DNA of 24,221 bases from Acidimicrobiaceae bacterium (GCA_003151955.1 PLZB01000060.1:1-24221), one strand, 5' to 3'; counted from the stretch's first letter, positions 6,159 through 18,465 are shown. A program made the numbers and translations. The notes: generated from the sequence alone by a model not told the origin.

Positions 6159-6683
6159 TTGAACGCGACGGCGGCATCGCTCCTCGGGGTCCTCCGGCGC
6201 CACGGGGAGCTCACCGGGGCCGGGCTGGTCCGGGCCACGCTCCTCGAGATCGGGGAGTTCTTCCCCCTGGCCCGGAGCCAGGCCTACCGGGAGCTGACCG
6301 ACCTGGCCGACCACGACCTGGTGGAGGCCGGCCCCCCCGGCCCCCGGTCCTCCCGCCCCCACCGGGTCACCCGGGCCGGCGAGGTGGCGTTCCTGGAGTG
6401 GCTGGCCCAGACCCCGGGGGAGGACTCCGTCCGGTTCCCCCTCCTCCTCACCATCTCCTTCGGGTCCGACCTCCCCCCGGCCCGGCTGGCCGAGCTCGTC
6501 GACGCCCATGAGGCCCGCCACCGGGAGAAGCTGGCCCGGTACCGGGCCCTCCTTCCCCAGGTGGAGGAGCACGCCGACGCCTTCGTGGCCGCCACCCTCC
6601 ATCTCGGGATCCGCTACCAGGAGGCCACCCTGGCCTGGTTCTCCGAGCTCCCCCCCGAGGTCCGGGGACGGATCAGCCGTTGA
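6159..6683 (+). CDS. PadR-family transcriptional regulator.
   Basis: A winged-helix N-terminus (LLGVLRRHGELTGAGLVRATLLEIGEFFPLARSQAYRELTDLADHDLVE) is followed by a C-terminal helical dimerisation region. The start is ambiguous between GTG 6141 and TTG 6159. I chose 6159 so that the palindrome stays outside the coding sequence. Confidence 0.65.
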   Translation: MNATAASLLGVLRRHGELTGAGLVRATLLEIGEFFPLARSQAYRELTDLADHDLVEAGPPGPRSSRPHRVTRAGEVAFLEWLAQTPGEDSVRFPLLLTISFGSDLPPARLAELVDAHEARHREKLARYRALLPQVEEHADAFVAATLHLGIRYQEATLAWFSELPPEVRGRISR

Positions 6684-7248
6684 ACTGGTGGAGGACGGGG
6701 CCGTCGTGGCCCCAGCCGATCCTCGTCACCGAGGCGGTCGAGAGGTGGAGCCGCCAGGCCAGCTCGTCGCCGAGGCCGAGGGCCCAGGCCACGGCGGCCT
6801 TGATGGGCGAGACGTGGCTCACGACCACCACGTCGGTGCCGGCCCGGGCCCCGGCGCCGTCCTCGGCGAAGAGCTCCCGGCAGGCGCCCCGGACCCGCTC
6901 CCCCATCTCGAGGAGGGTCTCCCCCCCGGGGGGCCGGAAGCCGGGATCGGCCCGCCAGGCCTTCCAGAGATCGGCGGGGACGTCGGCGAGCCTCGTCCCG
7001 TCGAGCTCCCCGTAGTCGACCTCGAGCCAACGGTCGTCGAACTCCAGGGGAAGGTCACCGGCCAGGGCCAGGGCCGTCGCCCGGGCCCGACCCAGGGGGC
7101 TCGAGACGACCCGGCCCAGGCTCGGGAACCGGCCGGCCAGGGCGGCGGCCTGGGCCGATCCCGAATCCGTCAGGGGGGACTCCATCCGGCCCAGTAGGAG
7201 CCCGGCCCGGTTCCCAGCCGACTCCCCATGGCGGACGAGGATGAGCAC
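6673..7248 (-). CDS. Histidine phosphatase family protein (phosphoglycerate-mutase-like; CobC / alpha-ribazole-phosphatase-like).
   Basis: The N-terminal LVRHGES motif (catalytic RHG) and the internal His (VSHVSPI) are present. GTG start at 7248, 4 nt after the stop of the preceding gene. The 3' end overlaps PadR by 11 bp (convergent). Confidence 0.8.
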   Translation of the reverse strand: MLILVRHGESAGNRAGLLLGRMESPLTDSGSAQAAALAGRFPSLGRVVSSPLGRARATALALAGDLPLEFDDRWLEVDYGELDGTRLADVPADLWKAWRADPGFRPPGGETLLEMGERVRGACRELFAEDGAGARAGTDVVVVSHVSPIKAAVAWALGLGDELAWRLHLSTASVTRIGWGHDGPVLHQFNG

Positions 7249-7252
7249 GTTC

Positions 7253-7966
7253 CTAGCGGACCAGGATCCGGCCGCACTGGTCGCAGGTCATGACGGCGTC
7301 GGGGGGGGCCTTCCTGATCCGGTCGACCTCCATGGCCGGCAGGACGAGGTGGCAGCCCCCACAGGATCCCCCCACCAGCCGGGCCGCCCCCGTCCCTCCC
7401 AGCCGGGTCCGGAGTGTCTCGTAGCGGGCCAGGAGCTCGGCCGGGACCGACCCGGCCAGGGCGGCCCGCTCCCCGAGGAGCCGGTCCAGGTCGCCCTGGA
7501 GGTCCCCCTCGGCCACGGTGATGGCGGCCCGGAGGGTGCCGGCCTCCTCCTCCAGGGTCGCCGTCTCCGCCGCGGCGACCGTCAGCCGGTCGTCGAGGGG
7601 CTCGAGCTCCTCCATGATCTCGAGCTCCCGGTCCTCGAGCTCCCGCACGTGCTGGCCGAGGTGCCGGACCTCCTCGTCCATGGCCTGGAGCTCCCGGGCC
7701 GCGGTGACCTGGCCCCCGAACATCCGCTTCTCGATCTCCGCCTTCCGGCTCCGGGCCGTCCCGATCTGGTGCTCGAGGGCCTCCTGGCGGGCGCCGAGCT
7801 CGTCCCGCTCCTTCTGGACCGTCGCCATCCGGCTCGAGAGCCCGCTCACCGCGGCCCGGTTGGCAGTCAGGGCGACCCGCTCCGGGAGGCTGGCCAGCCG
7901 GTGCCGGACCTGGTCGACGGCGGTGTCGTGGTCCTGCAGGTCGAGCAGGCTCGTGAATTGGGTCAT
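7253..7966 (-). CDS. COG1579-type coiled-coil protein with a C-terminal C4 zinc ribbon (the family of mycobacterial Rv2229c).
   Basis: A long heptad-rich coiled coil (ELEDRELEIMEELEPLDDRL...) is followed by CGGCHLVLP...MTCDQCGRILV. The ATG start overlaps the NUDIX stop (ATGA at 7963-7966). Confidence 0.75.
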   Translation of the reverse strand: MTQFTSLLDLQDHDTAVDQVRHRLASLPERVALTANRAAVSGLSSRMATVQKERDELGARQEALEHQIGTARSRKAEIEKRMFGGQVTAARELQAMDEEVRHLGQHVRELEDRELEIMEELEPLDDRLTVAAAETATLEEEAGTLRAAITVAEGDLQGDLDRLLGERAALAGSVPAELLARYETLRTRLGGTGAARLVGGSCGGCHLVLPAMEVDRIRKAPPDAVMTCDQCGRILVR

Positions 7967-8535
7967 CCGTTGTCCTCCGGGGTTTCCAGGACCTCCGGCT
8001 GGGCCCGGGCCACCCGGAGGGCTCCGAGGAGCGCCTCGTCGGCCATGGCCATCGCCTCGTCCCAGTCGTACCAGCGGGCCTCCGGGCTCTCCCCGGCCGG
8101 GGGGTCCGGATCCTGGTCGGGCCCCAGAAGGAGGTAGCGGAGGTCGAGATGGGTATGGCCCTGGGCCGCCTCGTGAACGTCGACGTGGAGGAGCCGGGGA
8201 CCGCTACCGGGATGGGCCAGGGCCAGGCCGGTCTCCTCCTCCGACTCCCGGAGGGCGGCCTCGGCCGGGGTCTCCCCGGGATCACAATGGCCTCCGGGCT
8301 GCATCCAGCGACCCAGACGCTTGTGGAGGTGGAGGACCGTTCCCCTCCGGCCCACCACGACGGCGGAGCCGGTCAGGTGGACGGGGTCGGCCCCCTCGTC
8401 GAAGGGGTCGGCCAACCGGTCCAGCTCGGCCAGGATCCGGGCCCGGGCCGCCGCCTCCCGGTCGTCACCGGCTCCGTGGCCGGCCACGACCCGGCGGACC
8501 GTCTCGACCTGGTCCGCCGGTTGGTGATGGGGCAC
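7963..8535 (-). CDS. NUDIX hydrolase.
   Basis: The Nudix box GGHCDPGETPAEAALRESEEETGL (GX5EX7REUXEEXGU) is present. The start is uncertain: GTG at 8535 or 8553. The longer ORF to 8904 would overlap the divergent ATP-grasp gene and reads as low-complexity. Confidence 0.65.
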   Translation of the reverse strand: MPHHQPADQVETVRRVVAGHGAGDDREAAARARILAELDRLADPFDEGADPVHLTGSAVVVGRRGTVLHLHKRLGRWMQPGGHCDPGETPAEAALRESEEETGLALAHPGSGPRLLHVDVHEAAQGHTHLDLRYLLLGPDQDPDPPAGESPEARWYDWDEAMAMADEALLGALRVARAQPEVLETPEDNG

Positions 8536-8592
8536 AGTCCATCGATACCACACGCTGACGGGGCCGGTGCACCGGAGACCTAAGGTGAACGG

Positions 8593-9555
8593 GTGGACAG
8601 CGGGAACGACACGGGGGCGGTGCTCGTCACCGGAGCCGGGGGTCCGGCCGGGGTGGCCGTCCTCCGGGCCGTCGCCGCGTCGGGTCGGACGGTGGTGGCC
8701 GCCGACGCCGATCCCGCCGCCGTCGGCCTCCGGCTGGCCGACCACGCCGGGGTGGTCCCCTCCGGCGACGACGAGGGCTTCGTCCCGGCCCTGGCCGACC
8801 TGGCCCGACGGACGGGGGCGACCGCCCTCGTGGCGACGGTGGCCGAGGAGCTCCCCGAACTCGTCCGCCGGGCCGACCTCCTGACCGCCGCCGGCCTGGC
8901 CCACTGGCTCCCCGACCCGGCCTCGGTGGACCGATGCTCCGACAAGTGGACCTTCTTCGAGACCGCCACCGCCGCCGGCGTCCCCGTGGCCGCCACCGGG
9001 CTGGGATCAGCCGAGGGCATCCCCGGTCCCTGGATCGTGAAGCCCCGCCAGGGCCGGGGGTCCCGCCACGTCATGGCCGTCGACGACCCCACCGACCTCG
9101 TCACCGCCCTCCGGCTCGTCCCCGACCCCATCGTCCAGACCCGGGCCCCCGGCCGGGAGTTCACCGTCGACGCCCTGGTGGGACGGGACGGGGTCATGGC
9201 CGGATGGGCCTCCCGCTGGCGGCTGGAGACGAAGGCGGGGATCTCCACCCGGGGGGAGACCTTCGACGACCCCGATCTCGGGGCCCTGGTCGGGGCCGTC
9301 CTGGCCGCCGTCGACCTCCGGGGCCCCGCCAACGTCCAGGGCTTCGTCGGGCCCGACGGGGCCGTCACCCTCATCGAGGTCAACCCCCGCTTCTCGGGTG
9401 GCCTCCCCCTCTCCCTGGCCGCCGGGGCCGACCTCGTCGGGGAGTACCTCCGGGGTGTGGCCGGCCTCCCCCTCCGGCCCGACCGGCTCCGGGCCCGGCC
9501 CGGGGTCCGGATGTTCCGCTACTTCGAGGAGATCTTCGAGGGGACCGGACCGTGA
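8593..9555 (+). CDS. ATP-grasp domain ligase (carboxylate-amine ligase family; substrate unknown).
   Basis: An N-terminal Rossmann-like segment (LVTGAGGPAGVAVLRAV) is followed by the ATP-grasp motifs WIVKPRQGRGSRHV and LIEVNPRFSGG. GTG start, with AAGGTGA upstream. Confidence 0.7.
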   Translation: MDSGNDTGAVLVTGAGGPAGVAVLRAVAASGRTVVAADADPAAVGLRLADHAGVVPSGDDEGFVPALADLARRTGATALVATVAEELPELVRRADLLTAAGLAHWLPDPASVDRCSDKWTFFETATAAGVPVAATGLGSAEGIPGPWIVKPRQGRGSRHVMAVDDPTDLVTALRLVPDPIVQTRAPGREFTVDALVGRDGVMAGWASRWRLETKAGISTRGETFDDPDLGALVGAVLAAVDLRGPANVQGFVGPDGAVTLIEVNPRFSGGLPLSLAAGADLVGEYLRGVAGLPLRPDRLRARPGVRMFRYFEEIFEGTGP

Positions 9556-10253
9556 CCGCCGCCGGGCTCCGGGCCGTCCTCTTCGACCTCGACGACACCC
9601 TCCTCCCCCAGGGGCCCTGGCTGGCCGGGGCCTTCGCCGCCGTGGCCGTCGAGGTCGCCCACCAGGCCGGGGGTCACCCCGACGCCGGCACGGTCGGGAG
9701 CGCCCTCCTGGCCGAGGCGGCCCGGGGATCGGCCCGGGGGGGGATCATCGACCGGGCCCTCGATGGCCTCGGCCTCGAGCTCCCCGTCGCTCCCCTCGTC
9801 GAGGTCTTCGCCGGCTACCGCCCCAACCAGCTCGACCTCTACCCCGGTGCCCTCGAAGCCCTGGGCCGGATCCGGGAGCGCGTCCCCGTCGGCCTCGTCT
9901 CCGACGGCCGGACCGACGTCCAGGGGGCCAAGCTGGCCGCCGCCGGCCTGATGGAGGCCTTCGACGTCGTCGTCCTCTCCGACGACCTGGGCCGGGCCCA
10001 CCGCAAGCCCGACCCCCTCCCCTACCGGACCGCCCTCGAGGCCCTCGCCGTCGACCCGGCCGAGGCCGCCTTCGTGGGGGACCGGCCCGAGACGGACATG
10101 GTCGGGGCCGACGCCCTCGGGATGGTGACCGTCCGGGTCTCGACCGGGGAGTACTCCGACCGGCCCGACCTCGTCACCCCGTCGGCCCGGGTCGCCGACG
10201 TCGTCGCCGCCGTTGCCTGGCTCGGACCCCGGCTCCGGGTCCGGACCCCGTGA
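9552..10253 (+). CDS. HAD-superfamily hydrolase / phosphatase.
   Basis: Motif I LFDLDDTL (DxDxT), motif II VGLVSDG, and motif III/IV K...FVGDRPETDM are present. GTG start overlapping the upstream TGA (GTGA). Confidence 0.8.
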   Translation: MTAAGLRAVLFDLDDTLLPQGPWLAGAFAAVAVEVAHQAGGHPDAGTVGSALLAEAARGSARGGIIDRALDGLGLELPVAPLVEVFAGYRPNQLDLYPGALEALGRIRERVPVGLVSDGRTDVQGAKLAAAGLMEAFDVVVLSDDLGRAHRKPDPLPYRTALEALAVDPAEAAFVGDRPETDMVGADALGMVTVRVSTGEYSDRPDLVTPSARVADVVAAVAWLGPRLRVRTP

Positions 10254-11395
10254 GGATCCTCGTCCCCCTGGGGACCCGACCCGAGATCGTCAAGCTCGCC
10301 CCCGTGGTGGCCGGCCTCGTCCGCCGGGGCCACGACGTCCGGACCATCGCCACCGGCCAGCACCACGACCCGGCCCTGACGGAGAGCTTCTTCGACGACC
10401 TCGGGCTCCTCCCCGACACCCGCTGGACCCTCCCCGACGGACCGGGGGAGCGCCTCGGGGCCATGCTGGCCCGGGCCGTCGACGACCTGGCCGGCCCCGG
10501 GGACCGCCCCGACCTGGTCCTCCTCCTCGGGGATACCAACACCGTCCCCGTCTTCTCCCTGGCCGCCCGCCGGGCCGGGGTCCCCCTGGCCCATCTCGAG
10601 GCCGGACTCCGGTCCCGCAACGAGACCTCCATCGAGGAGGTCAACCGGAAGGTGGCGGCCGCCTGCGCCTCCCTCCACCTGGCCCCCACCGACCTGGCCG
10701 CCCGATTCCTGGCCGCCGAGGGGATCCCCCCCACGCGGGTCCGGGTTGTCGGCAACCCGGTCCTCGACGTCCTGAGGGACTGGGGCGTGACGGGCCGGCC
10801 GGCCGGGGAGCGGGCCGGGGTGGTGGTGACGGCCCACCGGGCCACCAACGTCGACGACCCCGTCCGGCTGGCCGCCCTCGACCGGATCGTCCGGGGCCTG
10901 GCCGAGCGGGTCGGGCCCGTCAGCTTCCCCGTCCATCCCCGCACCGAGGGCCGCCTCCGCGACGCCGGCCTCTACGACACCCTGGCCGCCACCCCCGGCG
11001 TGGAGCTCACCGCCCCCCTCCCCTACCGGGCCATGCTCGACGCCCTGGCCGGGGCCCGGCTGGTCGTCACCGACTCGGGAGGCCTCCAGGAGGAGGCCTC
11101 CTGGCTCGGGGTCCCCGTCGTCGTCCTCCGCCGGTCGACCCCCCGCTGGGAGGGGGTGGCGGCCGGGACCTCGGTCCTGACCGGCATGGACCCCGACCTG
11201 GCCCTGGCCGCGGCGGAGCGCCTGGCCGACCCTGGGGAGCAGGCCCGGGTGGCCGCCGTCCCCTGCCCCTACGGCGACGGCCGGACGGCCGAGCGGGTGG
11301 CCGATGTCCTCGAAGAGCCCGGCATCACCGACCTCCTGGCCCTGCTCGAGCCGGACTACACCGACGGGACCTGGCCCGACCTTCCCCCGGCCTGA
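10250..11395 (+). CDS. UDP-N-acetylglucosamine 2-epimerase (WecB/MnaA/NeuC fold). Whether it is the hydrolysing or non-hydrolysing type is undetermined.
   Basis: The N-terminal block ILVPLGTRPEIVKLAPVV...TGQHHD and the blocks HLEAGLRS and VVTDSGGLQEEASWLGVPVVVLR are present. GTG start overlapping the HAD stop (GTGA). Confidence 0.8.
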   Translation: MRILVPLGTRPEIVKLAPVVAGLVRRGHDVRTIATGQHHDPALTESFFDDLGLLPDTRWTLPDGPGERLGAMLARAVDDLAGPGDRPDLVLLLGDTNTVPVFSLAARRAGVPLAHLEAGLRSRNETSIEEVNRKVAAACASLHLAPTDLAARFLAAEGIPPTRVRVVGNPVLDVLRDWGVTGRPAGERAGVVVTAHRATNVDDPVRLAALDRIVRGLAERVGPVSFPVHPRTEGRLRDAGLYDTLAATPGVELTAPLPYRAMLDALAGARLVVTDSGGLQEEASWLGVPVVVLRRSTPRWEGVAAGTSVLTGMDPDLALAAAERLADPGEQARVAAVPCPYGDGRTAERVADVLEEPGITDLLALLEPDYTDGTWPDLPPA

Positions 11396-11410
11396 TCACG
11401 GGGGGCCGGA

Positions 11411-12784
11411 CTACTCGGCCGGGCCCCCGTCGAGGAGCTGCTCCCCGATGATGAGCTCCCCGGCGATGGCCGGGGTGTAGGGCCAGGCGTCGGTGGTGGA
11501 ACCGGCGGTGGCCCGGATGGAATCCTCACCGGCGGACGCCGCCGGGGCCGACCCGGTGGTGGCGAGGGCCCAGACCCCGACGGGCCAGTAGTTGGCGGCC
11601 AGGGAGGAGACCACCCCGTTGGCCTCCTGGCGGGCCGACGCCGTGGGCTCGGCCCAGGCCCCCTGGCCGGCGGTGAACCGGGCCAGGAGGTCGGCCGCCC
11701 GGGGCCCGCTGACGAGGCCATAGGCCACGGCCCAGACCTGCTCGAGGCCGTCGGGGTAGAGGAGGGACCAGTCGGTGGTCTGGTGGATGCCGTCCCCGTG
11801 GACGGCCCAGTCGTAGGCCCCGGTGGCGGGGTCCCAGAGGGCGGCCACCCCGGCGGCCAGCCGGCCGGCGTCCGACCCGGCCCGGGTGGCCAGGGCGGGA
11901 TCCCCCAGGGCCCCGGCCAGGGTCACGGCCGCCTCGAGGCCCCCGTAGGTCTCGGCCTGGTCCATCAGGTACTTGACGTGGTAGCTCGGCTTGGCCCAGG
12001 TCAGCCCGTCGCTGTCCTGGGTGGACTCGATCACCGAGACGGCGGCGGCGACGGCCCCGGCCGAGGCGGTCAGCCGGCCCTGGTCACCGCTGGCGAGCCA
12101 GGCGTCCCGGACCGCCAGCAGGAAGGTCCCGGCCGTGGCGTCGGTGGAGTCGACGTCACCGGTGGGGACGGTCCCGCCCCCCGAGACGGTGGCGTTGGTC
12201 ACGACCCCGCCGGGTCCCTGGTTGGCCGCGTACCAGCCGATCTCCCGCCAGGCCTCCCCGGCCAGGGAGGCGTTTCCCGTCATCGAGGCCGCCCGGGCCA
12301 GGCCCATCGCCGCGTAGTTCGACAGGTAGGGCCAGACCTCCCCGCTCCCCGGGTAGGTGGTGATGGCCCCGTCGGCCAGCTGGGCCGACTCGATGAAGGT
12401 CACCTCGGCACCGACCTGGGCGCTCGCCGCCACCTGGGCCCGGTTCCCGGCCACCCCGACCGTCGTCGTCGTGGTGGAGGACGTCGAGGACGACGTGGTG
12501 GTCGAGGTCCCCGGGGGGGAGACGGAGGTCGTGGTGGTGGAGGAGCTCGACGTCGTGGAGGTCGAGCCGCCGGAGACCGCCGTGGGCGTCGGGCCGGCCG
12601 CTGACGGGGACGTCGTGGTCGAGCCGACGAGGCCGACGGCGGCAGCCTGGGTGGTGGTCGGCCCGGTGGAGACGGCCCGTGCCGCCCGGGGGGCGGCGGA
12701 GCTGCCGGCAGTGCCCCCGAGGAGTCCCGACGCGGCGACGATGATCCCGATCACCGCAGCCTGCCGTCCCCGCCTCTCCTGCAC
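11411..12784 (-). CDS. Secreted protein: a Sec signal peptide, a ~90-aa Ser/Thr-rich linker, and a ~330-aa C-terminal domain of unknown function.
   Basis: The signal peptide reads MQERRGRQAAVIGIIVAASGLLGGTAGSSAA. The linker reads TSTTSSSSTTTTSVSPPGTSTTTSSSTSSTTTTT. The C-terminal domain is rich in W, Y, A and G, with no assignable family. GTG start at 12784; an alternative GTG lies 10 codons downstream. Confidence 0.6.
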   Translation of the reverse strand: MQERRGRQAAVIGIIVAASGLLGGTAGSSAAPRAARAVSTGPTTTQAAAVGLVGSTTTSPSAAGPTPTAVSGGSTSTTSSSSTTTTSVSPPGTSTTTSSSTSSTTTTTVGVAGNRAQVAASAQVGAEVTFIESAQLADGAITTYPGSGEVWPYLSNYAAMGLARAASMTGNASLAGEAWREIGWYAANQGPGGVVTNATVSGGGTVPTGDVDSTDATAGTFLLAVRDAWLASGDQGRLTASAGAVAAAVSVIESTQDSDGLTWAKPSYHVKYLMDQAETYGGLEAAVTLAGALGDPALATRAGSDAGRLAAGVAALWDPATGAYDWAVHGDGIHQTTDWSLLYPDGLEQVWAVAYGLVSGPRAADLLARFTAGQGAWAEPTASARQEANGVVSSLAANYWPVGVWALATTGSAPAASAGEDSIRATAGSTTDAWPYTPAIAGELIIGEQLLDGGPAE

Positions 12785-12985: not shown

Positions 12986-14143
12986 TCAGGTGGTGATGCC
13001 CCCGCCCCCACCCTCGGAGCCGTCCCGGCCCCGAAGACCGGCCGGACCGTTGGGGCCCCCGCCGCCGGGTCCACCGAAGGCCCCGGTCGAGCCGGCGGGG
13101 ATGGCGATGATCGAGGTGGCCGTGACGGTCCCGTCTGCCGCCTTGCTGCCCATGACGATGATCCGGTCACCAACGGCAAGGCTGCTGAGGCTTCCCGTTC
13201 CCGAGGGGCTCCGGTAGGTGGTCGACGAGGTGGTGTCCACCGTCGTCGTCCCCCCTCCCGGTGTCGTCACGGTGATCGTCCCCCCGCTGACCGAAGCCAC
13301 CGTTCCCGTCGTCCCCGGCATCCCGGTCATGCCTCCCGGCATGCCCCCGAACCCCCGGTGTCCACCATGGCCGCCGCCGGCGGTCGGACCGCTGGGGCCG
13401 ACGGTGACCGAGGTGGCGTCGAGCTCGGTGTGGTCGGCGTCCACCGTGCCGGTGGCGACGACCCGGGCCCCGACGGTCACTACCGAGGCCGTGGCGGCCG
13501 CTCCCCCCTGGGAGTAGGTGGTCGACGGCGAGGTCTTCACCGTCCGGTAGAGACCCTGGACGTCGGAGAGGGTGATGGCTCCGCCCGTCACCGAGACCAC
13601 CGTCCCCTCGACCCGGGGGGAGACGATGTCGAGCTCGGCCGCCACCGGGGACACCGCCGCCGCCGTGGTCGTCGTCGAGGAGGACGGGCTGTGGGCGGGT
13701 CGGACGACCCGGATGTCGACGAGCTCGCCGACGGCCAGCGCGGACCGGTCCACGGTGGTCCCGTCCCGCTTGTAGATCGTGGCGCCGTCGGTGGACACCG
13801 TCCGGCTCGAGCCCCCCGGTCCGGAGACCGTCACCGTGGTGGCCCCGACCGCGGTCACGGTGGCCTCCCCAGCCGGGCCCCGCCCCCCGCCCGGCAACCC
13901 GGGAAGCCCGTGGGGGAGACCGCCGGGTGCGGTCGACGTGGTCGTCGACGAAGTGCCCCCGGCGGCGGCGGCGACGCCGTAGCCACCGAGTCCCAGCATC
14001 GCCGTCAGGCCCCCGGCGGCGACGGCCCAGCGGATCCCCCGGCCCCGGGTCGGCCCTTCCGGCGCCGGGGCGGGGATCGGATCGATCCAGCTGGCCACGA
14101 CAGGATCCTGGGCAGCTCCGGGCTCGGACTCAGCTGGGCTCAT
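12986..14143 (-). CDS. Membrane-anchored protein (cytoplasmic N-terminus, one TM) with three DUF5666-like beta-repeat domains separated by Gly/Ser/Thr-rich linkers.
   Basis: The TM segment is IRWAVAAGGLTAMLGLGGYGVAAAA. Three ~60-aa repeats follow the pattern GTV..V.G.TITV....G...TV.....T.Y........L..L.VGD.V. The gene lies immediately downstream of the two-component system on the same strand. Confidence 0.65.
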   Translation of the reverse strand: MSPAESEPGAAQDPVVASWIDPIPAPAPEGPTRGRGIRWAVAAGGLTAMLGLGGYGVAAAAGGTSSTTTSTAPGGLPHGLPGLPGGGRGPAGEATVTAVGATTVTVSGPGGSSRTVSTDGATIYKRDGTTVDRSALAVGELVDIRVVRPAHSPSSSTTTTAAAVSPVAAELDIVSPRVEGTVVSVTGGAITLSDVQGLYRTVKTSPSTTYSQGGAAATASVVTVGARVVATGTVDADHTELDATSVTVGPSGPTAGGGHGGHRGFGGMPGGMTGMPGTTGTVASVSGGTITVTTPGGGTTTVDTTSSTTYRSPSGTGSLSSLAVGDRIIVMGSKAADGTVTATSIIAIPAGSTGAFGGPGGGGPNGPAGLRGRDGSEGGGGGITT

Positions 14144-14244
14144 CCACGCTCCTCGGCTCGGCTAGCAAGATCCGCCACGATCAGTATCGGTCCCGATCCT
14201 TTGCGTCACCCCTGAGCAACCTGGGAATCTGCCGTGAATCCGCC

Positions 14245-15720
14245 TCAGCTCTTGACTTCCGCCTCAGGAGCCCCACCAGCCGCTTCCCGGTCCGGGACCT
14301 CGGCTGGGAGCTGGACCCAGAAGACCGACCCGCCACCCTCCCGGGGCACCATCCCGAGCTGTCCCCCGTGGGCCCGGACGATGGCAGAGGTGATGGCCAG
14401 CCCCAGGCCGGCCCCCCCGCTGGCCCGCTGCCGCGACGGGTCGAACCGGTGGAACGCCTCGAAGATCTTCTCCCGTTCCCCCTCCGCCACCCCCGGGCCC
14501 CGATCGGCCACCTCGAGTCGGGCCTCGGGTCCGGCCGCCCCCAACCAGACCTCGATCGGTGTCCCCTCCGGGGTGTACTTGCCGGCATTCGAGAGGAGGT
14601 TGTCGAGGACCTGGCGGAGACGCTCGGCGTCGCCCCGGACCATGACCCGGGGCGGGGACACGATGGTGACCGACCGCCCGGGGGCGGAGACCCCGAAGGC
14701 GTCGACGGCGGCGGCGGCCACCCCGGCCAGGTCGACGGAGCCCTCCTCCAGGGGACGCTCCCGGTCCAGCCGGGCCAGGAGGAGGAGGTCTTCCACCAGG
14801 TGGCCCATCCGGTCCGCCTCGGCCCTGATGTGGTGCATGGCGAGGGCCAGGTCCTCGGGCCGGTCCCGGGCCCCCCGATCGAACATCTCGGCGTAGCCCC
14901 GGATCGATGTCAGCGGGGTCCTGAGCTCGTGGGAGGCGTCGGCAAGGAACCGCCGGAGCCGTTCCTCCGAGGCCGCCCGGGCCGCGAAGGCCACCTCGAT
15001 CTCCCCCAGCATCGAGTTGAGGGCCAGCCCGAGCCGGCCCACCTCGCTTCCCTCCTCCCGGACCTCGACCCGCTGGGAGAGGTCCCCGGCCGCGATCGCC
15101 CCCGCCGTGGTCGCCATCTGGTCCAGGGGCCGCAACCCCCGCCGGACCACCCACCACACCAGGGCCATCAGGCCGAGGAGGACCCCTATCGAGACCAGGA
15201 TCTCGATCCGGAGCAGCCGCCCCAGGGTCTGGTCGACATCGGTCAGGGGAAAGGCGACGATCAGGGTTCCGGCCACCTCCCCGCTGCCATTGTTGTAGAC
15301 CGGCTCGGCCCGGACCCGGTAGGTGACCGGCGACGGCCCGGCACTCTCCGCAACGAAGAGGACGGCCGACACCCCCGGGCCACCCGAGCCGGGCAGATCG
15401 GCGGGGAGGACCGGCGGGGAGAGATTCCCCCCGAAGGGGTCAGGCCCCACCAGGGCCGCCCCCGTCGTGTCCCGCAGCTCCCCGACCGTCCCGATCGGGA
15501 TGAGCGAGGCGTCACCGCTCGACCGGAAACCCCCCGAGGGTCCCACCACCGGGTCCCGGACGAGGTGCTGGAGGACGACCTGGTCCGAGCCGGCCAGCTG
15601 GCTGTCGATCCGGCTCAGGAGGAAGGAGTGGAGGGAGGTGTAGGTGACAACCCCCGACGCCCCCAGCCCGACCGCCACGATCCCGACCAGGAGGGCCAGG
15701 AGCCGGATCCGGAGCGTCAC
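14245..15720 (-). CDS. Sensor histidine kinase with TM1, a ~150-aa extracytoplasmic sensor domain, TM2, and HAMP, HisKA and HATPase_c domains.
   Basis: The H-box reads FLADASHELRTPLTSIRGYAEM. The N-box/G-boxes read LLSNAGKYTP, ADRGPGV and GGAGLGLAI. GTG start at 15720, 8 bp after the response-regulator stop. The listed 745-aa ORF merges this frame with antisense of the response-regulator gene. Confidence 0.85.
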   Translation of the reverse strand: MTLRIRLLALLVGIVAVGLGASGVVTYTSLHSFLLSRIDSQLAGSDQVVLQHLVRDPVVGPSGGFRSSGDASLIPIGTVGELRDTTGAALVGPDPFGGNLSPPVLPADLPGSGGPGVSAVLFVAESAGPSPVTYRVRAEPVYNNGSGEVAGTLIVAFPLTDVDQTLGRLLRIEILVSIGVLLGLMALVWWVVRRGLRPLDQMATTAGAIAAGDLSQRVEVREEGSEVGRLGLALNSMLGEIEVAFAARAASEERLRRFLADASHELRTPLTSIRGYAEMFDRGARDRPEDLALAMHHIRAEADRMGHLVEDLLLLARLDRERPLEEGSVDLAGVAAAAVDAFGVSAPGRSVTIVSPPRVMVRGDAERLRQVLDNLLSNAGKYTPEGTPIEVWLGAAGPEARLEVADRGPGVAEGEREKIFEAFHRFDPSRQRASGGAGLGLAITSAIVRAHGGQLGMVPREGGGSVFWVQLPAEVPDREAAGGAPEAEVKS

Positions 15721-15728
15721 CGCCCCGC

Positions 15729-16463
15729 CTACTCCCCGGGACCCGTCGAACCGGCCTCCGACGGCGGCCGCAGGCTGTAGCCCACCCCCCGGACCGTCTG
15801 GATGAGCCGGGGCCCGAGGGAGTCGACCTTCCGCCGGAGGTAGCTGATGTAGATCTCGACCACGTTGGCGTTCCCGTCGAAGTCGTAATTCCAGACCCGG
15901 TCGAGGATCTGGGCCTTGGAGACGACCCGCCCAGCGTTGAGCAGCAGGTAGTGGAGGAGCTTGAACTCGGTCGGCGTCAGCTCGACGACGACCGGACCCC
16001 GCCGGACGACGTGGCTCTCCTCGTCGAGGACCAGGTCGGCCACCTGGAGCCGTCCCGTGTCCCGCTCCCCCGGGTGGGCCCGACGGAGGATGGCCCGGGC
16101 CCGGACGATGAGCTCCTCCACGCTGAAGGGCTTCGTCATGTAGTCGTCGCCCCCCAGGGTGAACCCCCGGAGCTTGTCCTCCAGGGTGTCCCGGGCCGTC
16201 AGGAAGAGGACCGGGAGGCCCTCCACGATCCGGTCCCCCCCCAACCGCCGGAGGACCTCGAACCCGTCGAGGTCGGGCAGCATCACGTCGAGGACGAGGA
16301 GCTGGGGCCGGAATGTCGGGATGGCCTCGAGGGCCTCCCGGCCGGTGTGGGCGACCTGGACCTCCATCCCCTCGTAGCGCAGTGCCATGGCCACCAGGTC
16401 CGTGATGCCCTTTTCGTCGTCCACCACCAGGACCCGCTGTCCGCTGCCCTCTGCCATCGACAT
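15729..16463 (-). CDS. OmpR/PhoB-family response regulator.
   Basis: The receiver domain is VLVVDDE...LLVLDVMLPDLDGFEV...TARD...K. The winged-helix output domain is LTPTEFKLLHYLLLNAGRVVSKAQILDRVWNYDF...VEIYISYLRRKV. Confidence 0.9.
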   Translation of the reverse strand: MSMAEGSGQRVLVVDDEKGITDLVAMALRYEGMEVQVAHTGREALEAIPTFRPQLLVLDVMLPDLDGFEVLRRLGGDRIVEGLPVLFLTARDTLEDKLRGFTLGGDDYMTKPFSVEELIVRARAILRRAHPGERDTGRLQVADLVLDEESHVVRRGPVVVELTPTEFKLLHYLLLNAGRVVSKAQILDRVWNYDFDGNANVVEIYISYLRRKVDSLGPRLIQTVRGVGYSLRPPSEAGSTGPGE

Positions 16464-16578: not shown

Positions 16579-18465
16579 ATGTTCTCGATCGGCTATCTCT
16601 GGAACGAGCTCCGGCGACGCTGGAGTCGGACCCTCGTCACCGCCGTGGGCCTCGCCGCCGGTGTCGGCCTCGTCATGGCCATCATCGGCGTCTCCGCCGG
16701 CCTGACCGACGCCCAGGGCAAGGCCCTCTCCCCCCTCTCCACGGTCGGGACCGACATCATCGTCACCCGGACCGTGGGTGCCACCACCGCCGCGGCTGCC
16801 TCGACCACGACGACGACGACCGCCCCGACCGGCTTCGGTGGGCCCGGTGCCGGGGGCGGTCCCGGCGGAGGCGGCGGCGGCGGCTTCTTCGGTGGAGGGG
16901 CCCGGGGTCTTGGAGGCACGAGCGCCATCAGCTCCCTCAACTCCACCGACCAGGCCACCCTCCTGAACGCCAACTCCTCGATCCTCACCGACCTCTCCAA
17001 GCTCGGCCCGGCCGGGACCGCATTCACCTACGACTTCTTCGTCCCCGGCACCCTCATCACCTTCCCCGACCAGGCCCTCCAGGTCGTCTCGGCCGTGAAG
17101 GGCGTCCAGTCCGCCGTCCCCGGCCTCTCCCTCCAGGCCCTCCACGAGAGCGGCACCGTCCCCGCCATCTCCGCCTCGATCCAGACCGGGGGCCAGACCA
17201 TCACGGCCACCTCGACCCCGGCTCCCCTCACCGCGGCCGAGCGGACCCAGGTCCGGCAGTGCCTCCAGAACAGCGGGGCCTTCCCCAACTCCACCACCAC
17301 GACAACCCCGGCCGGCTCCGGGCCCCCCACCGCCACCCCCGGCGCCTCGGGCAACCCCACCCGGGGCGGCGGCTTCGGCGGCGGTGGCGGGGGCGCTCTG
17401 GACATCGGTGCCCTCGACAGCCGCTTCGGCTCCGCCTTCACCACCTGCCTCCCGGCCCGCTACCAGCAGTACGAGGCCCAGGTCGTCGTTCCCACCCAGA
17501 CCATCACCCAGGTCCTGAACCCGCCCCAGACCGACACCCAGACCAAGAGCTACACCGTGGCCGGCGTGAACCCCTCGAACACCACCACCGGGCTGATCAC
17601 GAAGGCCCAGCTCGTCTCCGGGTCCTGGTTCGGCTCCTCCCCCGCCGACCAGCTCCTCGTCAACACCGCCTACGCCAGCTCGAATTCCATCAAGGTGGGC
17701 CAGACCCTCACCATCGACAGCACCACCTTCACCGTCGTCGGCCTCGTCAACCCCACCCTGACCGGGAACACCTCCGACCTCTACTTCGACCTCGCCACCC
17801 TCCAGAGCCTGGCCAGCAACGCCGGCCGGGTCAACGAGGTCCTCGTCAAGGTCACCGACGCCAGCCAGGTCGACGCCGTGGCCGCTGCCATCCAGAAGGA
17901 GCTCCCCGGGGCCCAGGTCCTCACCTCGAAGAGCCTGGCCAGCCAGGTCACCGGCAGCCTCTCCCAGGCCCATTCCCTGGCCACCAACCTCGGTGGGGCC
18001 CTGGCCGTCATCGTCCTGTTGGCCGCCTTCCTCATCGCCGCCCTCCTGACCCTGGCCAGCGTGGCCAAGCGGGTCCGGGAGATCGGCACCCTCAGGGCCC
18101 TGGGCTGGTCCAAGGGCCGGGTCGTCCGCCAGATCGTGGCGGAGACAGTCGGCATCGGGCTCCTGGGCGGTGTCATCGGGATCGGCCTCGGCGTGGGGAT
18201 CTGCGCCCTCATCACCCACCTGGGCCCGACCCTGACCTCCACCTCGACCGGCACCGCCGTCGGGGCCTCCACGGCCGGGAGCGTCTTCCACCAGGCCACC
18301 ACGGCCGCGGCGAGCACGAGCGTCCGCCTGACCGCTCCCATCAAGCTCTCCACGGTGGGGCTGGGGCTCCTCTTCGGCGGCCTGGGTGGCTTCCTGTCCG
18401 GCGGGGCCGGCGGCTGGCGGGCGGCCCGGCTCCCACCGGCCTCGGCCATGCGGGACCTGGGATGA
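16579..18465 (+). CDS. ABC transporter permease, FtsX/MacB-type. It has one N-terminal TM, a very large (~480-aa) extracytoplasmic domain with Gly-rich inserts, and three C-terminal TMs.
   Basis: A GGAGGGG RBS lies 5 nt before ATG 16579. The C-terminal FtsX core is AVIVLLAAFLIAALLTLASVAKRVREIGTLRALGWSKGRVVRQIVAE...GIGLLGG. The Gly-runs are GFGGPGAGGGPGGGGGGGFFGGGARGLGG and RGGGFGGGGGGALDIG. Confidence 0.8.
   Translation: MFSIGYLWNELRRRWSRTLVTAVGLAAGVGLVMAIIGVSAGLTDAQGKALSPLSTVGTDIIVTRTVGATTAAAASTTTTTTAPTGFGGPGAGGGPGGGGGGGFFGGGARGLGGTSAISSLNSTDQATLLNANSSILTDLSKLGPAGTAFTYDFFVPGTLITFPDQALQVVSAVKGVQSAVPGLSLQALHESGTVPAISASIQTGGQTITATSTPAPLTAAERTQVRQCLQNSGAFPNSTTTTTPAGSGPPTATPGASGNPTRGGGFGGGGGGALDIGALDSRFGSAFTTCLPARYQQYEAQVVVPTQTITQVLNPPQTDTQTKSYTVAGVNPSNTTTGLITKAQLVSGSWFGSSPADQLLVNTAYASSNSIKVGQTLTIDSTTFTVVGLVNPTLTGNTSDLYFDLATLQSLASNAGRVNEVLVKVTDASQVDAVAAAIQKELPGAQVLTSKSLASQVTGSLSQAHSLATNLGGALAVIVLLAAFLIAALLTLASVAKRVREIGTLRALGWSKGRVVRQIVAETVGIGLLGGVIGIGLGVGICALITHLGPTLTSTSTGTAVGASTAGSVFHQATTAAASTSVRLTAPIKLSTVGLGLLFGGLGGFLSGGAGGWRAARLPPASAMRDLG

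What the first reader, a model, noticed from the sequence alone, without database searches (positions are those of the whole stretch)
8593..11395. Translationally coupled ATP-grasp ligase / HAD phosphatase / UDP-GlcNAc 2-epimerase operon: a candidate undescribed amino-sugar modification pathway
Two consecutive junctions are GTGA overlaps (9552-9555 and 10250-10253), implying 1:1:1 co-translation. A 2-epimerase acting on UDP-GlcNAc (WecB/NeuC fold) would produce UDP-ManNAc or free ManNAc. A HAD enzyme is a typical sugar-phosphate phosphatase, as in nonulosonic-acid pathways. An ATP-grasp enzyme would ligate a carboxylate to an amine or amino acid. I do not recognise this trio as any known pathway (mycothiol, teichuronic acid, or sialic/legionaminic acid). 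The convergent neighbour is a secreted protein with a Ser/Thr-rich linker, which suggests a cell-envelope glycoconjugate.
Basis: inference. Interest (0 to 1): 0.65.

Follow-up and report, generated by a model that had tools for sequence, protein, structure and literature searches.

The report
Conserved actinobacterial sugar-remodelling three-gene operon
The three overlapping genes are real. They form a widely conserved but uncharacterised module (ATP-grasp ligase, phosphatase, UDP-GlcNAc 2-epimerase) that in most related Actinomycetota sits inside a larger, unnamed surface-polysaccharide locus, and it most likely puts an unusual acyl group on an amino sugar.

Summary
There are three + strand genes: an ATP-grasp (8593-9555), a HAD phosphatase (9552-10253) and a WecB-type epimerase (10250-11395). 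They are joined by two GTGA overlaps.

The trio is not an orphan. In 80 related species loci the ATP-grasp lies next to:
- a PgaC-like multi-TM GT2 synthase (72 loci)
- WecB (67)
- a small exosortase-family protein (65)
- HAD (64)
- a PIG-L de-N-acetylase (59)

Natural fusions exist for ATP-grasp-WecB, ATP-grasp-HAD, ATP-grasp-PIG-L and WecB-HAD. Distant ATP-grasp homologues in Bacillota, Proteobacteria and haloarchaea also sit beside a homologous HAD inside glycan loci. Where HAD is missing, a PHP or LMW-PTP phosphatase is there instead.

The window's lineage carries only the trio plus a convergent secreted protein. I model that protein as an (alpha/alpha)6 glycoside-hydrolase-like barrel.

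Best reading (inferred): WecB makes UDP-ManNAc, a deacetylase frees the amine, the ATP-grasp ligates a phosphorylated acid to it, and HAD removes the phosphate. The result is a new N-acyl sugar for a surface polymer.

The nearest known analogues are C. jejuni Cj1438/Cj1435, B. cereus Pyl and Neisseria PglB2. No curated family or paper names this system. It is a new variant of a known kind, and the interest is moderate.

The parts
8593..9555 (+). Stand-alone ATP-grasp ligase (320 aa). Signature is PF15632/PF02655/PF21360, and it falls in the 'PRK12767 CPSase-like' family of unknown function. It lacks the N-terminal TM+HEAT extension that most orthologues carry.
   Evidence: invariant K150, E262, N264, R266 and the GRGSR loop; 2pn1, E 2.7e-38; AF2 pLDDT 92.3; 2pn1 TM 0.80/0.83; 225 clusters at E<=1e-30.
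9552..10253 (+). HAD-IA family phosphatase (233 aa) with complete catalytic motifs: D12-x-D14-x-T16, K152, G176-D177-x4-D182.
   Evidence: motifs conserved in 50/51 orthologues and distant AG-linked HADs; homologous to the HADs next to distant ATP-grasp homologues.
10250..11395 (+). WecB-type (non-hydrolysing class) UDP-GlcNAc 2-epimerase (381 aa).
   Evidence: TIGR00236 241 bits > 210; NeuC 37 bits < 236. (best PDB match 4neq; WbpI-type 8sxy close behind). (E. coli WecB R10, K15, D95, E117, E131, R135, H213, S290, G291, E296 invariant in the window protein and 50 orthologues; reference sequence checked against 1f6d).
9552..9555 (+). GTGA start/stop overlap between the ATP-grasp and HAD genes.
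   Evidence: conservation of such overlaps.
10250..10253 (+). GTGA start/stop overlap between the HAD and WecB genes.
11411..12784 (-). Convergent secreted protein: N-terminal signal/anchor helix, Ser/Thr-rich linker, then a ~330-aa (alpha/alpha)6 glycoside-hydrolase-like barrel. It is a probable accessory hydrolase of the same glycopolymer system. The public gene call starts at 12754. Its stop codon lies only 15 nt from the WecB stop.
   Evidence: No Pfam or NCBIfam hit. Family members are annotated 'hypothetical', and some carry PG_binding_1 or CW_binding_2. AF2 domain pLDDT >90. Foldseek top hit is MmpH polysaccharide hydrolase 7qsj (E 2e-8), then GH15/63/78/125-type barrels. Homologues lie within 9 kb of the ATP-grasp in 14 related species loci and in L083.
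7963..8487 (-). Divergent NUDIX hydrolase. It keeps this position in the three genomes that share the window's arrangement. Its involvement is uncertain, and it may simply be conserved housekeeping synteny with the CT398 and His_Phos_1 genes.
   Evidence: L028; L083.

Best explanation
The trio is the sugar-remodelling arm of a cell-surface glycopolymer pathway that is conserved across Actinomycetota and has not been characterised.

Shown:
- WecB is a catalytically intact non-hydrolysing-class 2-epimerase.
- The ATP-grasp and the HAD are intact enzymes.
- The three genes are co-inherited, tightly coupled and occasionally fused to each other.
- In most relatives they are flanked by a processive multi-TM GT2 synthase (DAD/TED/QxxRW motifs), a PIG-L de-N-acetylase and an exosortase-family protein with C-terminally anchored secreted proteins.

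Inferred mechanism:
1. WecB converts UDP-GlcNAc to UDP-ManNAc.
2. A PIG-L-type deacetylase exposes the 2-amino group. It is not in this window and is presumably encoded elsewhere in this genome.
3. The ATP-grasp activates the carboxylate of a phosphorylated small acid as an acyl-phosphate and ligates it to that amine. Candidate acids are 3-phosphoglycerate, O-phosphoserine and phosphoglycolate.
4. The HAD removes the phosphate, leaving an unusual N-acyl hexosamine.
5. The GT2 synthase polymerises or incorporates that sugar.
6. The secreted (alpha/alpha)6 protein trims or releases the polymer outside the cell.
For: Conservation: in 80 species loci the ATP-grasp has GT2 within 9 kb in 72, WecB in 67, exosortase-like in 65, HAD in 64 and PIG-L in 59.

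Fusions: AG-Epimerase_2 (P0409; P0416 = RefSeq WP_127011516 of Microbacterium oxydans), AG-HAD (P0373, P0492), AG-PIG-L (P0496), AG-PHP (P0508) and WecB-HAD (L038).

M. oxydans locus: [AG-WecB]-HAD facing GT2-PIG-L-surface proteins.

The phosphatase step recurs in three unrelated folds. HAD is usual. PHP appears in the HAD-less subclade. LMW-PTP appears in Streptomyces plasmid loci.

Distant homologues: 6 of 9 annotated plasmid loci (Priestia, Halorussus, Haloarcula, Ensifer, Leisingera, Palleronia) have AG next to a HAD that is homologous to the window's HAD. All nine are glycan loci with sugar aminotransferases, dehydratases, glycosyltransferases and flippases.

Amine rather than carboxylate on the sugar: amine generators (PIG-L or DegT) are the constant companions, and no nucleotide-sugar dehydrogenase homologue was found in any actinobacterial locus.

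Enzymes intact.

Precedents: ATP-grasp N-acylation of UDP-4-amino sugars (Pyl; Hwang 2014, cited in PMC11626204 and PMC8987622); PglB2 makes a glyceramido sugar (PMC11130364); ATP-grasp amidation with a phosphorylated partner followed by a HAD phosphatase (Cj1438/Cj1435; PMC11800379).

The GT2 motifs can be read in the L004 sequence.
Against: No PIG-L, GT2 or exosortase lies in the 24-kb window, or within 10 kb in the two closest relatives. In this lineage the amine-generating step and the polymerase are therefore assumed, not seen.

The acyl donor is unknown, and nothing here identifies it.

The direction of ligation (sugar amine + acid, or sugar acid + amine) is inferred from gene context only. 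One haloarchaeal locus pairs AG-HAD with wecB and a nucleotide-sugar dehydrogenase, which fits the opposite direction.

Homology of this ATP-grasp to Pyl or PglB2 could not be tested because I had no sequences.

WecB's second-best PDB matches are WbpI-type epimerases, so a substrate other than UDP-GlcNAc is possible.

Gene calls in the related loci are my own heuristic.
Confidence: 0.5

Rival explanations
1. Same module, opposite chemistry. WecB plus an unlinked UDP-ManNAc dehydrogenase gives ManNAcA. The ATP-grasp activates the sugar's C6 carboxylate and amidates it with a phosphorylated amine (ethanolamine-P, serinol-P, phosphoserine or phosphothreonine). HAD then dephosphorylates. This is exactly how C. 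jejuni Cj1438C/Cj1435 work, and it would give ManNAcA-6-amides like those in Methanococcus N-glycans.
For: The Cj1438 (GT2 + ATP-grasp) / Cj1435 (HAD) precedent is demonstrated biochemically (PMC11800379). The Haloarcula GH36 plasmid has GT-AG-HAD next to a nucleotide-sugar dehydrogenase and wecB. ManNAcA amide-linked to threonine exists in archaeal glycans (PMC11407970). GT2 adjacency in 72/80 loci mirrors the Cj1438 fusion.
Against: No nucleotide-sugar dehydrogenase homologue was found in any of the 85 actinobacterial loci, and none appeared among the 25 Pfam families shown for the recurrent neighbour families. The constant companions are amine generators (PIG-L in 59/80 loci; an AG-PIG-L fusion). 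The ATP-grasp is not TupA-like: PF14305 is absent from the Pfam hits.
Confidence: 0.15
2. The enzymes belong to one pathway but with other chemistry. For example, the ATP-grasp forms an ester (O-acylation of the sugar or polymer) or modifies a peptide or protein substrate such as the exosortase targets. Alternatively, the HAD acts on a sugar phosphate or nucleotide (UMP or sugar-P) rather than on the ligase product.
For: ATP-grasp enzymes are chemically versatile. Most orthologues carry an N-terminal TM+HEAT extension and sit directly after the exosortase gene. The HAD's weak NCBIfam similarities include pyrimidine nucleotidases and phosphoglycolate phosphatases.
Against: AG-PIG-L and AG-WecB fusions tie the ligase to amino-sugar chemistry. 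The ligase is also found in loci with no exosortase at all (the PIG-L-GT2-AG subclade, M. oxydans and the plasmid loci). Substitution by three unrelated phosphatase folds argues that the phosphatase serves the ligase step.
Confidence: 0.2
3. A cytoplasmic small-molecule pathway built on the mycothiol/bacillithiol logic (glycosyl transfer, phosphatase, PIG-L deacetylase, ATP-dependent ligase). It would make a new low-molecular-weight amino-sugar conjugate rather than a polymer.
For: The PIG-L partner's best NCBIfam hit is BshB1 (89.7 bits). The enzyme set (phosphatase + deacetylase + ligase) parallels MshA2/MshB/MshC. The window's trio stands alone beside housekeeping genes.
Against: BshB1, MshB and Mca cut-offs are not reached. 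There is no MshA/BshA-type GT4 and no MshC/BshC. The partner glycosyltransferase is a multi-TM processive-type GT2 with TED and QxxRW motifs. Secreted hydrolase-like, sorted surface proteins and exosortase genes co-localise.
Confidence: 0.07
4. Coincidental operon. WecB is just the housekeeping MnaA-type epimerase that supplies UDP-ManNAc for a wall-polymer linkage unit, and the ATP-grasp and HAD are functionally unrelated neighbours.
For: WecB passes the generic wecB equivalog model. In many Actinomycetes the locus lies near wecA and the atp operon.
Against: Pairwise fusions occur among all three genes. The trio is conserved in both gene orders across classes. No TagA/WecG-type ManNAc transferase turned up in the loci.
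Confidence: 0.03

Closest known systems
C. jejuni HS:2 capsule amidoligase/phosphatase pair: Cj1438 (GT2 domain + TupA-like ATP-grasp) and Cj1435 (HAD)
   Same: A GT2 glycosyltransferase, an ATP-grasp ligase and a HAD phosphatase work together on a growing surface polysaccharide. The ligase uses a phosphorylated co-substrate and the HAD removes the phosphate afterwards (PMC11800379). The gene triad GT2 + ATP-grasp + HAD recurs in the relatives of this window.
   Different: This ATP-grasp is not TupA-like (no PF14305 hit). There is no uronic-acid-forming dehydrogenase in the loci. The partner here is a multi-TM synthase-type GT2, with PIG-L and WecB. The likely nucleophile is a sugar amine rather than serinol-P or ethanolamine-P.
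[quoted passage not shown]
   Same: These are ATP-grasp enzymes that N-acylate an amino sugar during glycan precursor synthesis. Distant homologues of the window's ATP-grasp sit between a 4,6-dehydratase and a DegT aminotransferase, or next to a PglC-like sugar transferase.
   Different: In those systems the amine comes from a dehydratase/aminotransferase route at C4. Here it would come from de-N-acetylation at C2 of a ManNAc/GlcNAc unit. No phosphatase partner is described for Pyl or PglB2. Sequence relationship to the window protein was not tested.
PDB 2pn1 / NCBIfam PRK12767 'carbamoyl phosphate synthase-like protein'
   Same: This is the closest solved structure and the closest curated models. 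The match is full-length (E 2.7e-38; TM 0.80-0.83; PRK12767.1-4 aligned over 3-314 of 320).
   Different: 2pn1 is a structural-genomics entry with no assigned function. All PRK12767 equivalog cut-offs are missed (161 vs 390 bits). The name is a historical mis-annotation, not a function.
Nod-factor logic (NodC synthase, NodB de-N-acetylase, NodA N-acyltransferase) and the PNAG systems (PgaC/IcaA)
   Same: A processive GT2 HexNAc synthase is paired with a de-N-acetylase and then an N-acylating enzyme. The GT2's best NCBIfam hits are PgaC_IcaA (128 bits), with NodC weaker (56 bits).
   Different: The cut-offs are far from met (422 and 550 bits). The deacetylase is PIG-L fold, not CE4. Acylation would be ATP-grasp-dependent. 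An epimerase and a phosphatase are added.
Exosortase/PEP-CTERM-type protein-sorting systems linked to EPS loci (XrtA, XrtG, XrtP, XrtS ...)
   Same: In 65/80 related loci a small exosortase-family protein with the Cys/Arg/His signature lies directly upstream of the ATP-grasp. Secreted proteins ending in a motif + TM + Arg-rich tail are nearby, one of them a 'choice-of-anchor P' protein.
   Different: No named Xrt subfamily cut-off is reached (best is XrtS at 51 vs 145 bits). The window itself has no exosortase. ATP-grasp/WecB/HAD partners are not described for any named exosortase system that I could find.

Membership tests
Non-hydrolysing UDP-GlcNAc 2-epimerase (WecB/MnaA, TIGR00236) | Score above the curated equivalog cut-off | tested here: met
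   241 bits vs cut-off 210.15; Pfam Epimerase_2 271 bits.
Non-hydrolysing UDP-GlcNAc 2-epimerase (WecB/MnaA, TIGR00236) | Catalytic and UDP-binding residues of E. coli WecB (R10, K15, D95, E117, E131, R135, H213, S290, G291, E296) | tested here: met
   All are identical in the window protein and invariant in 50 orthologues. The reference sequence was verified as PDB 1f6d. The roles of these residues are from my own knowledge of the WecB literature.
Non-hydrolysing UDP-GlcNAc 2-epimerase (WecB/MnaA, TIGR00236) | Reversible UDP-GlcNAc to UDP-ManNAc activity without hydrolysis | not testable with these tools
   Needs an enzyme assay. WbpI-type epimerases score nearly as well in the PDB search.
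Hydrolysing epimerase NeuC/SiaA and sialic/legionaminic acid pathways | NeuC_NnaA model above cut-off, with NeuB-type synthase in the neighbourhood | tested here: not met
   37 bits vs 235.9. No NeuB-family gene is on the contig (Pfam list).
HAD superfamily phosphatase (subfamily IA) | Motifs I-IV (DxDxT, S/T, K, GDxxxD) and Pfam HAD models above gathering score | tested here: met
   Hydrolase 83.8 bits, HAD_2 68.6 bits. D12, D14, T16, K152, D177 and D182 are conserved in 50/51 sequences.
TIGR02253 (CTE7) HAD subfamily, phosphoglycolate phosphatase, YjjG nucleotidase | Score above the curated cut-off | tested here: not met
   102 vs 169.75; 54 vs 180; 66 vs 159.9.
ATP-grasp superfamily | Three-domain ATP-grasp fold with the ATP-binding Lys and the Mg-binding E-x-N | tested here: met
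   PF15632 51.4 > 29.1 and PF02655 42.4 > 23.2. K150, E262 and N264 are invariant. AF2 pLDDT 92, and the top 50 Foldseek hits shown are all ATP-grasp enzymes.
PRK12767 'CPSase-like' equivalogs (NCBIfam NF009402-NF009406) | Score above the curated cut-off | tested here: not met
   The best is 161.5 vs 390 bits, although it aligns end to end.
   Scores are 13-28 bits against cut-offs of 686-1027. The protein is a complete 320-aa enzyme matching the 331-aa 2pn1 over its whole length.
PylC (3-methylornithine-lysine ligase) | TIGR03909 above cut-off | tested here: not met
   There is no hit at E<=0.01 for the window protein. The orthologue in L004 scores 24 vs 248 bits. Only the N-terminal PylC-like_N Pfam domain matches, marginally (27.6 vs 27).
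TupA-like ATP-grasp amidoligase (Cj1438 C-terminal domain) | Match to the TupA-like ATP-grasp Pfam model | tested here: not met
   It is not among the Pfam hits at E<=0.01. This assumes that PF14305 is in the library copy.
Ter-operon-associated nucleoside-like metabolite pathway (origin of the PF15632 name) | Linkage to TerD/PRTase/TIM-barrel lyase genes | tested here: not met
   None is on the contig, and none is among the 25 Pfam families shown for the recurrent neighbour families of 80 loci.
Pyl / PglB2 type amino-sugar N-acylating ATP-grasp | Sequence homology to Pyl or to the PglB2 C-terminal domain; ligation of an acid to a UDP-amino sugar | not tested
Only the gene context of distant homologues resembles these systems.
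Named exosortase systems (XrtA-XrtX) with associated EPS genes | Exosortase present and above a named subfamily cut-off | tested here: not met
   The window has no exosortase within 24 kb. In relatives, the generic TIGR04178 signature passes in 5 of 6 tested, but the best named subfamily hit is XrtS at 51 vs 145 bits.
PNAG synthase system (PgaC/IcaA) | GT2 above the PgaC_IcaA cut-off, with a CE4 deacetylase partner | tested here: not met
   The relatives' GT2 scores 127.7 vs 422.3, and the deacetylase is PIG-L fold. Neither gene is present in the window.
Mycothiol / bacillithiol biosynthesis | MshA/BshA GT4, MshB/BshB above cut-off, MshC/BshC ligase | tested here: not met
   BshB1 89.7 vs 182.5 and MshB 17.9 vs 224. 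No GT4 and no Cys ligase were seen in the loci.

The most novel reading that the evidence does not exclude
The trio is one arm of a previously undescribed, Actinomycetota-wide surface system. A PIG-L deacetylase and the ATP-grasp/phosphatase pair would swap the N-acetyl group of a ManNAc/GlcNAc unit for a new acyl group (glyceroyl, glycolyl or aminoacyl). A processive GT2 would export the polymer. This modified glycan, possibly through a free amine or hydroxyl on the new acyl group, would be the acceptor to which an unnamed Gram-positive exosortase attaches its C-terminally tagged surface proteins. The membrane-tethered HEAT-ATP-grasp would act at the synthase. That would give bacterial exosortases a chemically defined acceptor for the first time.
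Probability: 0.15. Interest if true: 0.8.

Novelty: new variant of a known kind. Interest (0 to 1): 0.55.

Why it matters
ATP-grasp + phosphatase pairs of this family are common. The pairs occur in glycan loci of Actinomycetota, Bacillota, Proteobacteria and haloarchaea. Yet they are annotated only as 'ATP-grasp domain-containing protein' or wrongly as 'carbamoyl-phosphate synthase large subunit'.

Assigning their chemistry would explain how many bacteria and archaea install non-acetyl N-acyl groups (or amides) on surface sugars. Those groups determine antigenicity, phage and immune recognition, and biofilm properties.

In Actinomycetota the module is welded to an unnamed exosortase/GT2 locus. 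Solving it could also show what Gram-positive exosortases attach their substrates to.

Cultured, sequenced hosts carry the locus and make this testable: Microbacterium oxydans, Pseudonocardia, Catenulispora, Amycolatopsis pigmentata, Klenkia marina and Aciditerrimonas ferrireducens.

Tried and rejected
- **Sialic/legionaminic-type pathway** (NeuC + HAD). Rejected: the NeuC model scores 37 vs 236 bits and no NeuB is on the contig.
- **Carboxylase or purine-enzyme fragment.** Rejected: it is a complete ATP-grasp and all those models score far below cut-off.
- **Ter-operon metabolite pathway** suggested by the Pfam name. Rejected: no Ter genes anywhere.
- **Mycothiol/bacillithiol-like thiol pathway.** Kept only as a low-probability rival.
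- **Uronic-acid route.** A tblastn with a nucleotide-sugar dehydrogenase found nothing in 85 actinobacterial loci.
- **Rfam scan of the window.** No RNA family; no riboswitch upstream of the operon.
- **Sigma-70 promoter and intrinsic terminator scan, 8300-11600.** Nothing found, which is uninformative in 76% GC DNA.
- **PDB sequence search with the secreted neighbour.** Only noise; the fold search was needed.
- **Literature.** 'ATP-grasp' + 'UDP-N-acetylglucosamine 2-epimerase' + 'HAD' returned 0 papers. 'Exosortase' + 'ATP-grasp' returned one irrelevant paper. AglU/MMP1084, my recollection of a threonine-adding enzyme in M. maripaludis, could not be verified.
- **Papers not held.** Chamot-Rooke 2007 and Hwang 2014 were not available.
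- **Search seeded from a proteobacterial homologue, to reach PglB2-like fusions.** It returned only unnamed 'ATP-grasp domain-containing protein' entries.
- **Could not determine** whether this organism has GT2, PIG-L or exosortase genes elsewhere.

Full report
**Observation**

The window is 69-77% GC. The ORF listing and direct reading show three co-directional genes:
- 8593-9555 (320 aa)
- 9552-10253 (233 aa)
- 10250-11395 (381 aa)

GTGA is present at 9552-9555 and at 10250-10253, so each GTG start overlaps the previous TGA stop. An exact-match look-up found the source, a 24.5-kb metagenome scaffold (WOOD18-1, ENA ERZ28653421). The same three genes are called there.

- Gene 1 is an ATP-grasp (ATPgrasp_Ter, ATP-grasp_3, PylC-like_N).
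- Gene 2 is a HAD-IA hydrolase.
- Gene 3 is Epimerase_2, and passes the NCBIfam wecB equivalog model (241 vs 210 bits). The NeuC model scores only 37 bits.

**State of the three enzymes**

- WecB: the E. coli residues R10, K15, D95, E117, E131, R135, H213, S290, G291 and E296 are identical in the window protein and invariant in 50 orthologues. I checked my reference sequence against PDB 1f6d.
- HAD: it has DxDxT, the motif-III Lys and GDxxxxD, conserved in 50 of 51 sequences.
- ATP-grasp: it keeps the ATP-binding Lys and the E-x-N Mg site. It models with pLDDT 92 and superposes end to end on PDB 2pn1 (TM 0.80/0.83), an unannotated structural-genomics protein. Biotin carboxylases, PurK and L-amino-acid ligases follow at lower scores.

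The ATP-grasp is therefore a complete enzyme of the unnamed 'PRK12767' group. It is not a carboxylase fragment, and it misses every curated equivalog cut-off.

**Conservation and context**

A scan of one genome per species returned at least 537 relatives, and 80 loci were kept. All are Actinomycetota: Acidimicrobiia, Solirubrobacteraceae, Pseudonocardia, Catenulispora, Amycolatopsis, Klenkia and Acidothermaceae.

Counts within 9 kb of the ATP-grasp, from tblastn and an ad hoc gene call with clustering:

| Neighbour | Loci (of 80) |
|---|---|
| GT2 | 72 |
| WecB | 67 |
| Exosortase-family protein | 65 |
| HAD | 64 |
| N-terminal TM+HEAT extension on the ATP-grasp | 61 |
| PIG-L | 59 |

- The usual order is: small secreted proteins, PIG-L, GT2, exosortase-like, ATP-grasp, WecB, HAD. 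In many Actinomycetes this block sits between rho and prfA-prmC-sua5-glyA-wecA-atp.
- The GT2 is multi-TM. It carries DAD, TED and QRYRW motifs (sequence), and its best hit is PgaC/IcaA, far below cut-off.
- The small membrane protein has the exosortase Cys/Arg/His signature. It passes the generic TIGR04178 model but no named Xrt subfamily.
- Nearby secreted proteins end in a short motif, a TM helix and an Arg-rich tail. One is a 'choice-of-anchor P' protein.
- Junction overlaps of 4 or 1 nt occur in about two-thirds of the loci, whichever gene order is used.

**The window's own lineage**

The window, contig L083 (71% identical ATP-grasp) and L028 share a reduced arrangement: His_Phos_1, CT398 and NUDIX on one side, then ATP-grasp-HAD-WecB, then a convergent secreted protein. 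No GT2, PIG-L or exosortase lies within 10 kb.

In a rough NJ tree this lineage nests among exosortase-linked loci. It sits next to Aciditerrimonas ferrireducens, which has the same AG-HAD-WecB order with an exosortase directly upstream and GT2/PIG-L 6-7 kb away.

The convergent protein has no Pfam, NCBIfam or PDB sequence match. Its AF2 model (domain pLDDT >90) is an (alpha/alpha)6 barrel. The best Foldseek hit is the mycobacterial methylmannose-polysaccharide hydrolase MmpH, followed by GH15/63/78/125-type enzymes. Homologues recur beside the full locus in 14 species, and some carry peptidoglycan- or cell-wall-binding domains.

**Evidence that the genes act together**

An exhaustive search found 225 representative clusters at E<=1e-30. 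Among them are natural fusions:
- ATP-grasp-Epimerase_2
- ATP-grasp-HAD
- ATP-grasp-PIG-L
- ATP-grasp-PHP
- WecB-HAD, seen in L038

The ATP-grasp-WecB fusion is a multi-species RefSeq protein of Microbacterium. In the complete M. oxydans genome it is followed by HAD with a 4-nt overlap. It faces GT2-PIG-L and repeat-rich surface proteins.

**The ATP-grasp/phosphatase pair is older than the trio**

On annotated plasmids, homologues at 26-40% identity always lie in glycan loci. In 6 of 9 cases the next gene is a HAD hydrolase that is itself homologous to the window's HAD. The six are Priestia, Halorussus, Haloarcula, Ensifer, Leisingera and Palleronia.

Three actinobacterial plasmids instead show rfbB, ATP-grasp, DegT aminotransferase, with a low-molecular-weight phosphatase in two of them.

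The actinobacterial subclade that lacks HAD and WecB (PIG-L, GT2, ATP-grasp; for example L085, whose ATP-grasp is 68% identical to the window's) has a PHP-domain phosphoesterase beside the ligase in five loci.

So a phosphatase step supplied by three unrelated folds is an intrinsic part of what this ligase does.

**Mechanism**

Shown: the enzymes are intact, they are genetically linked, and the context is glycan and envelope biosynthesis.

Inferred: the ligase joins a sugar amine to a phosphorylated acid, and the phosphatase finishes the product. Three points favour the amine being on the sugar:
- The constant companions are amine generators: PIG-L in 59/80 loci, an AG-PIG-L fusion, and DegT aminotransferases in distant loci.
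- No nucleotide-sugar dehydrogenase homologue occurs in any actinobacterial locus.
- There are precedents. B. cereus Pyl ligates 2-oxoglutarate to a UDP-4-amino sugar. Neisseria PglB2, an ATP-grasp/phosphoglycosyltransferase, makes a glyceramido sugar.

The use of a phosphorylated partner followed by a HAD phosphatase is demonstrated for C. jejuni Cj1438/Cj1435, where the chemistry runs the other way: a sugar carboxylate plus serinol-P or ethanolamine-P. That opposite direction is the main rival. A Haloarcula locus pairs AG-HAD with wecB and a sugar dehydrogenase, and Methanococcus glycans contain ManNAcA-threonine amides.

WecB most simply supplies the manno configuration at the nucleotide-sugar level, and the AG-WecB and WecB-HAD fusions suggest channelling there.

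**What remains open**

- The acyl donor is unknown.
- The direction of ligation is inferred from context only.
- It is unknown whether this lineage has PIG-L or GT2 genes elsewhere.
- It is unknown whether the exosortase uses the modified glycan.
- No NCBIfam model, Pfam family or paper that I could find names the system.

**Verdict**

However, the trio is a module of a larger conserved system, not a stand-alone pathway. Its logic has known analogues (Cj1438/Cj1435, Pyl, PglB2). I rate it a new variant of a known kind, with moderate interest. It would rise to high interest if the link between the modified glycan and exosortase-mediated protein anchoring proved true.

Noticed in passing
Related loci, e.g. 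L004:8862-9395 (+), L072:8750-9325 (+), L080:8985-9551 (+): There is an unnamed subfamily of small (~175-195 aa) exosortase-family proteins in Actinomycetota with conserved Cys / GNxxR / LFHxW motifs. It passes the generic exosortase/archaeosortase signature but no named Xrt model (best is XrtS at 51 vs 145 bits). It sits directly upstream of the ATP-grasp in 65 of 80 loci.
   Followed up: partly
Related loci, e.g. L004:5680-6216 and 6216-6752; L072:5588-6460 (-); L033:5810-6499: Small secreted proteins next to the locus end in a short Pro/Gly motif (for example VPTGAVGG or KPVPQVG), one TM helix and an Arg-rich tail. They were seen in 30 loci and look like a new C-terminal sorting signal. One of them is a 'choice-of-anchor P' family protein.
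   Followed up: partly
Orthologues of the ATP-grasp, e.g. L004:9431-10924; stand-alone version at L082:9363-9995: Most orthologues carry a ~170-aa N-terminal extension with one TM helix and HEAT_2 repeats. The window's protein lacks it, and in a few genomes it is a separate gene. This suggests the ligase is tethered at the membrane near the synthase or exosortase.
   Followed up: partly
L037:6447-7538, L079:6262-7128, L085:7116-8225: There are response-regulator receiver domain-PIG-L deacetylase fusion proteins in the PIG-L-(PHP)-GT2-ATP-grasp subclade. This hints that the deacetylation step is controlled by phosphorylation.
   Followed up: no
window 11396-11410: Only 15 nt separate the WecB stop (11395) from the stop of the convergent secreted-protein gene (11411). 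No terminator-like hairpin was detected there. The same convergent pairing is kept in L083 and L028.
   Followed up: partly
window 7963-8904 (-): The NUDIX reading frame stays open for 313 codons and would overlap the ATP-grasp start on the opposite strand. The public gene call and homology support a shorter 174-aa protein ending near 8487. That leaves a ~105-nt divergent intergenic region, which presumably holds both promoters.
   Followed up: partly
window 6673-7966 (-): His_Phos_1 and CT398-type zinc-ribbon/coiled-coil genes lie upstream. From memory, this is the actinobacterial housekeeping pair known from the M. tuberculosis Rv2228c/Rv2229c region. In this lineage the trio has been inserted beside housekeeping genes rather than in an EPS island.
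   Followed up: no
window 12986-16463 (-) and 16579-19310 (+): A Gly/Thr-rich DUF5666 secreted protein, a HAMP/HisKA sensor kinase with an OmpR-type regulator, and a divergent MacB/FtsX-type ABC transporter lie downstream. They are not conserved next to the trio in L083, so they are probably unrelated.
   Followed up: no
Annotated plasmid loci L089 (Ensifer) and L094 (Palleronia): A sugar formyltransferase-like gene directly precedes the ATP-grasp-HAD pair in two alphaproteobacterial polysaccharide loci. A Neisseria oralis pgl locus is reported to contain a HAD hydrolase and a formyltransferase (PMC6959607). This may be the same module.
   Followed up: no
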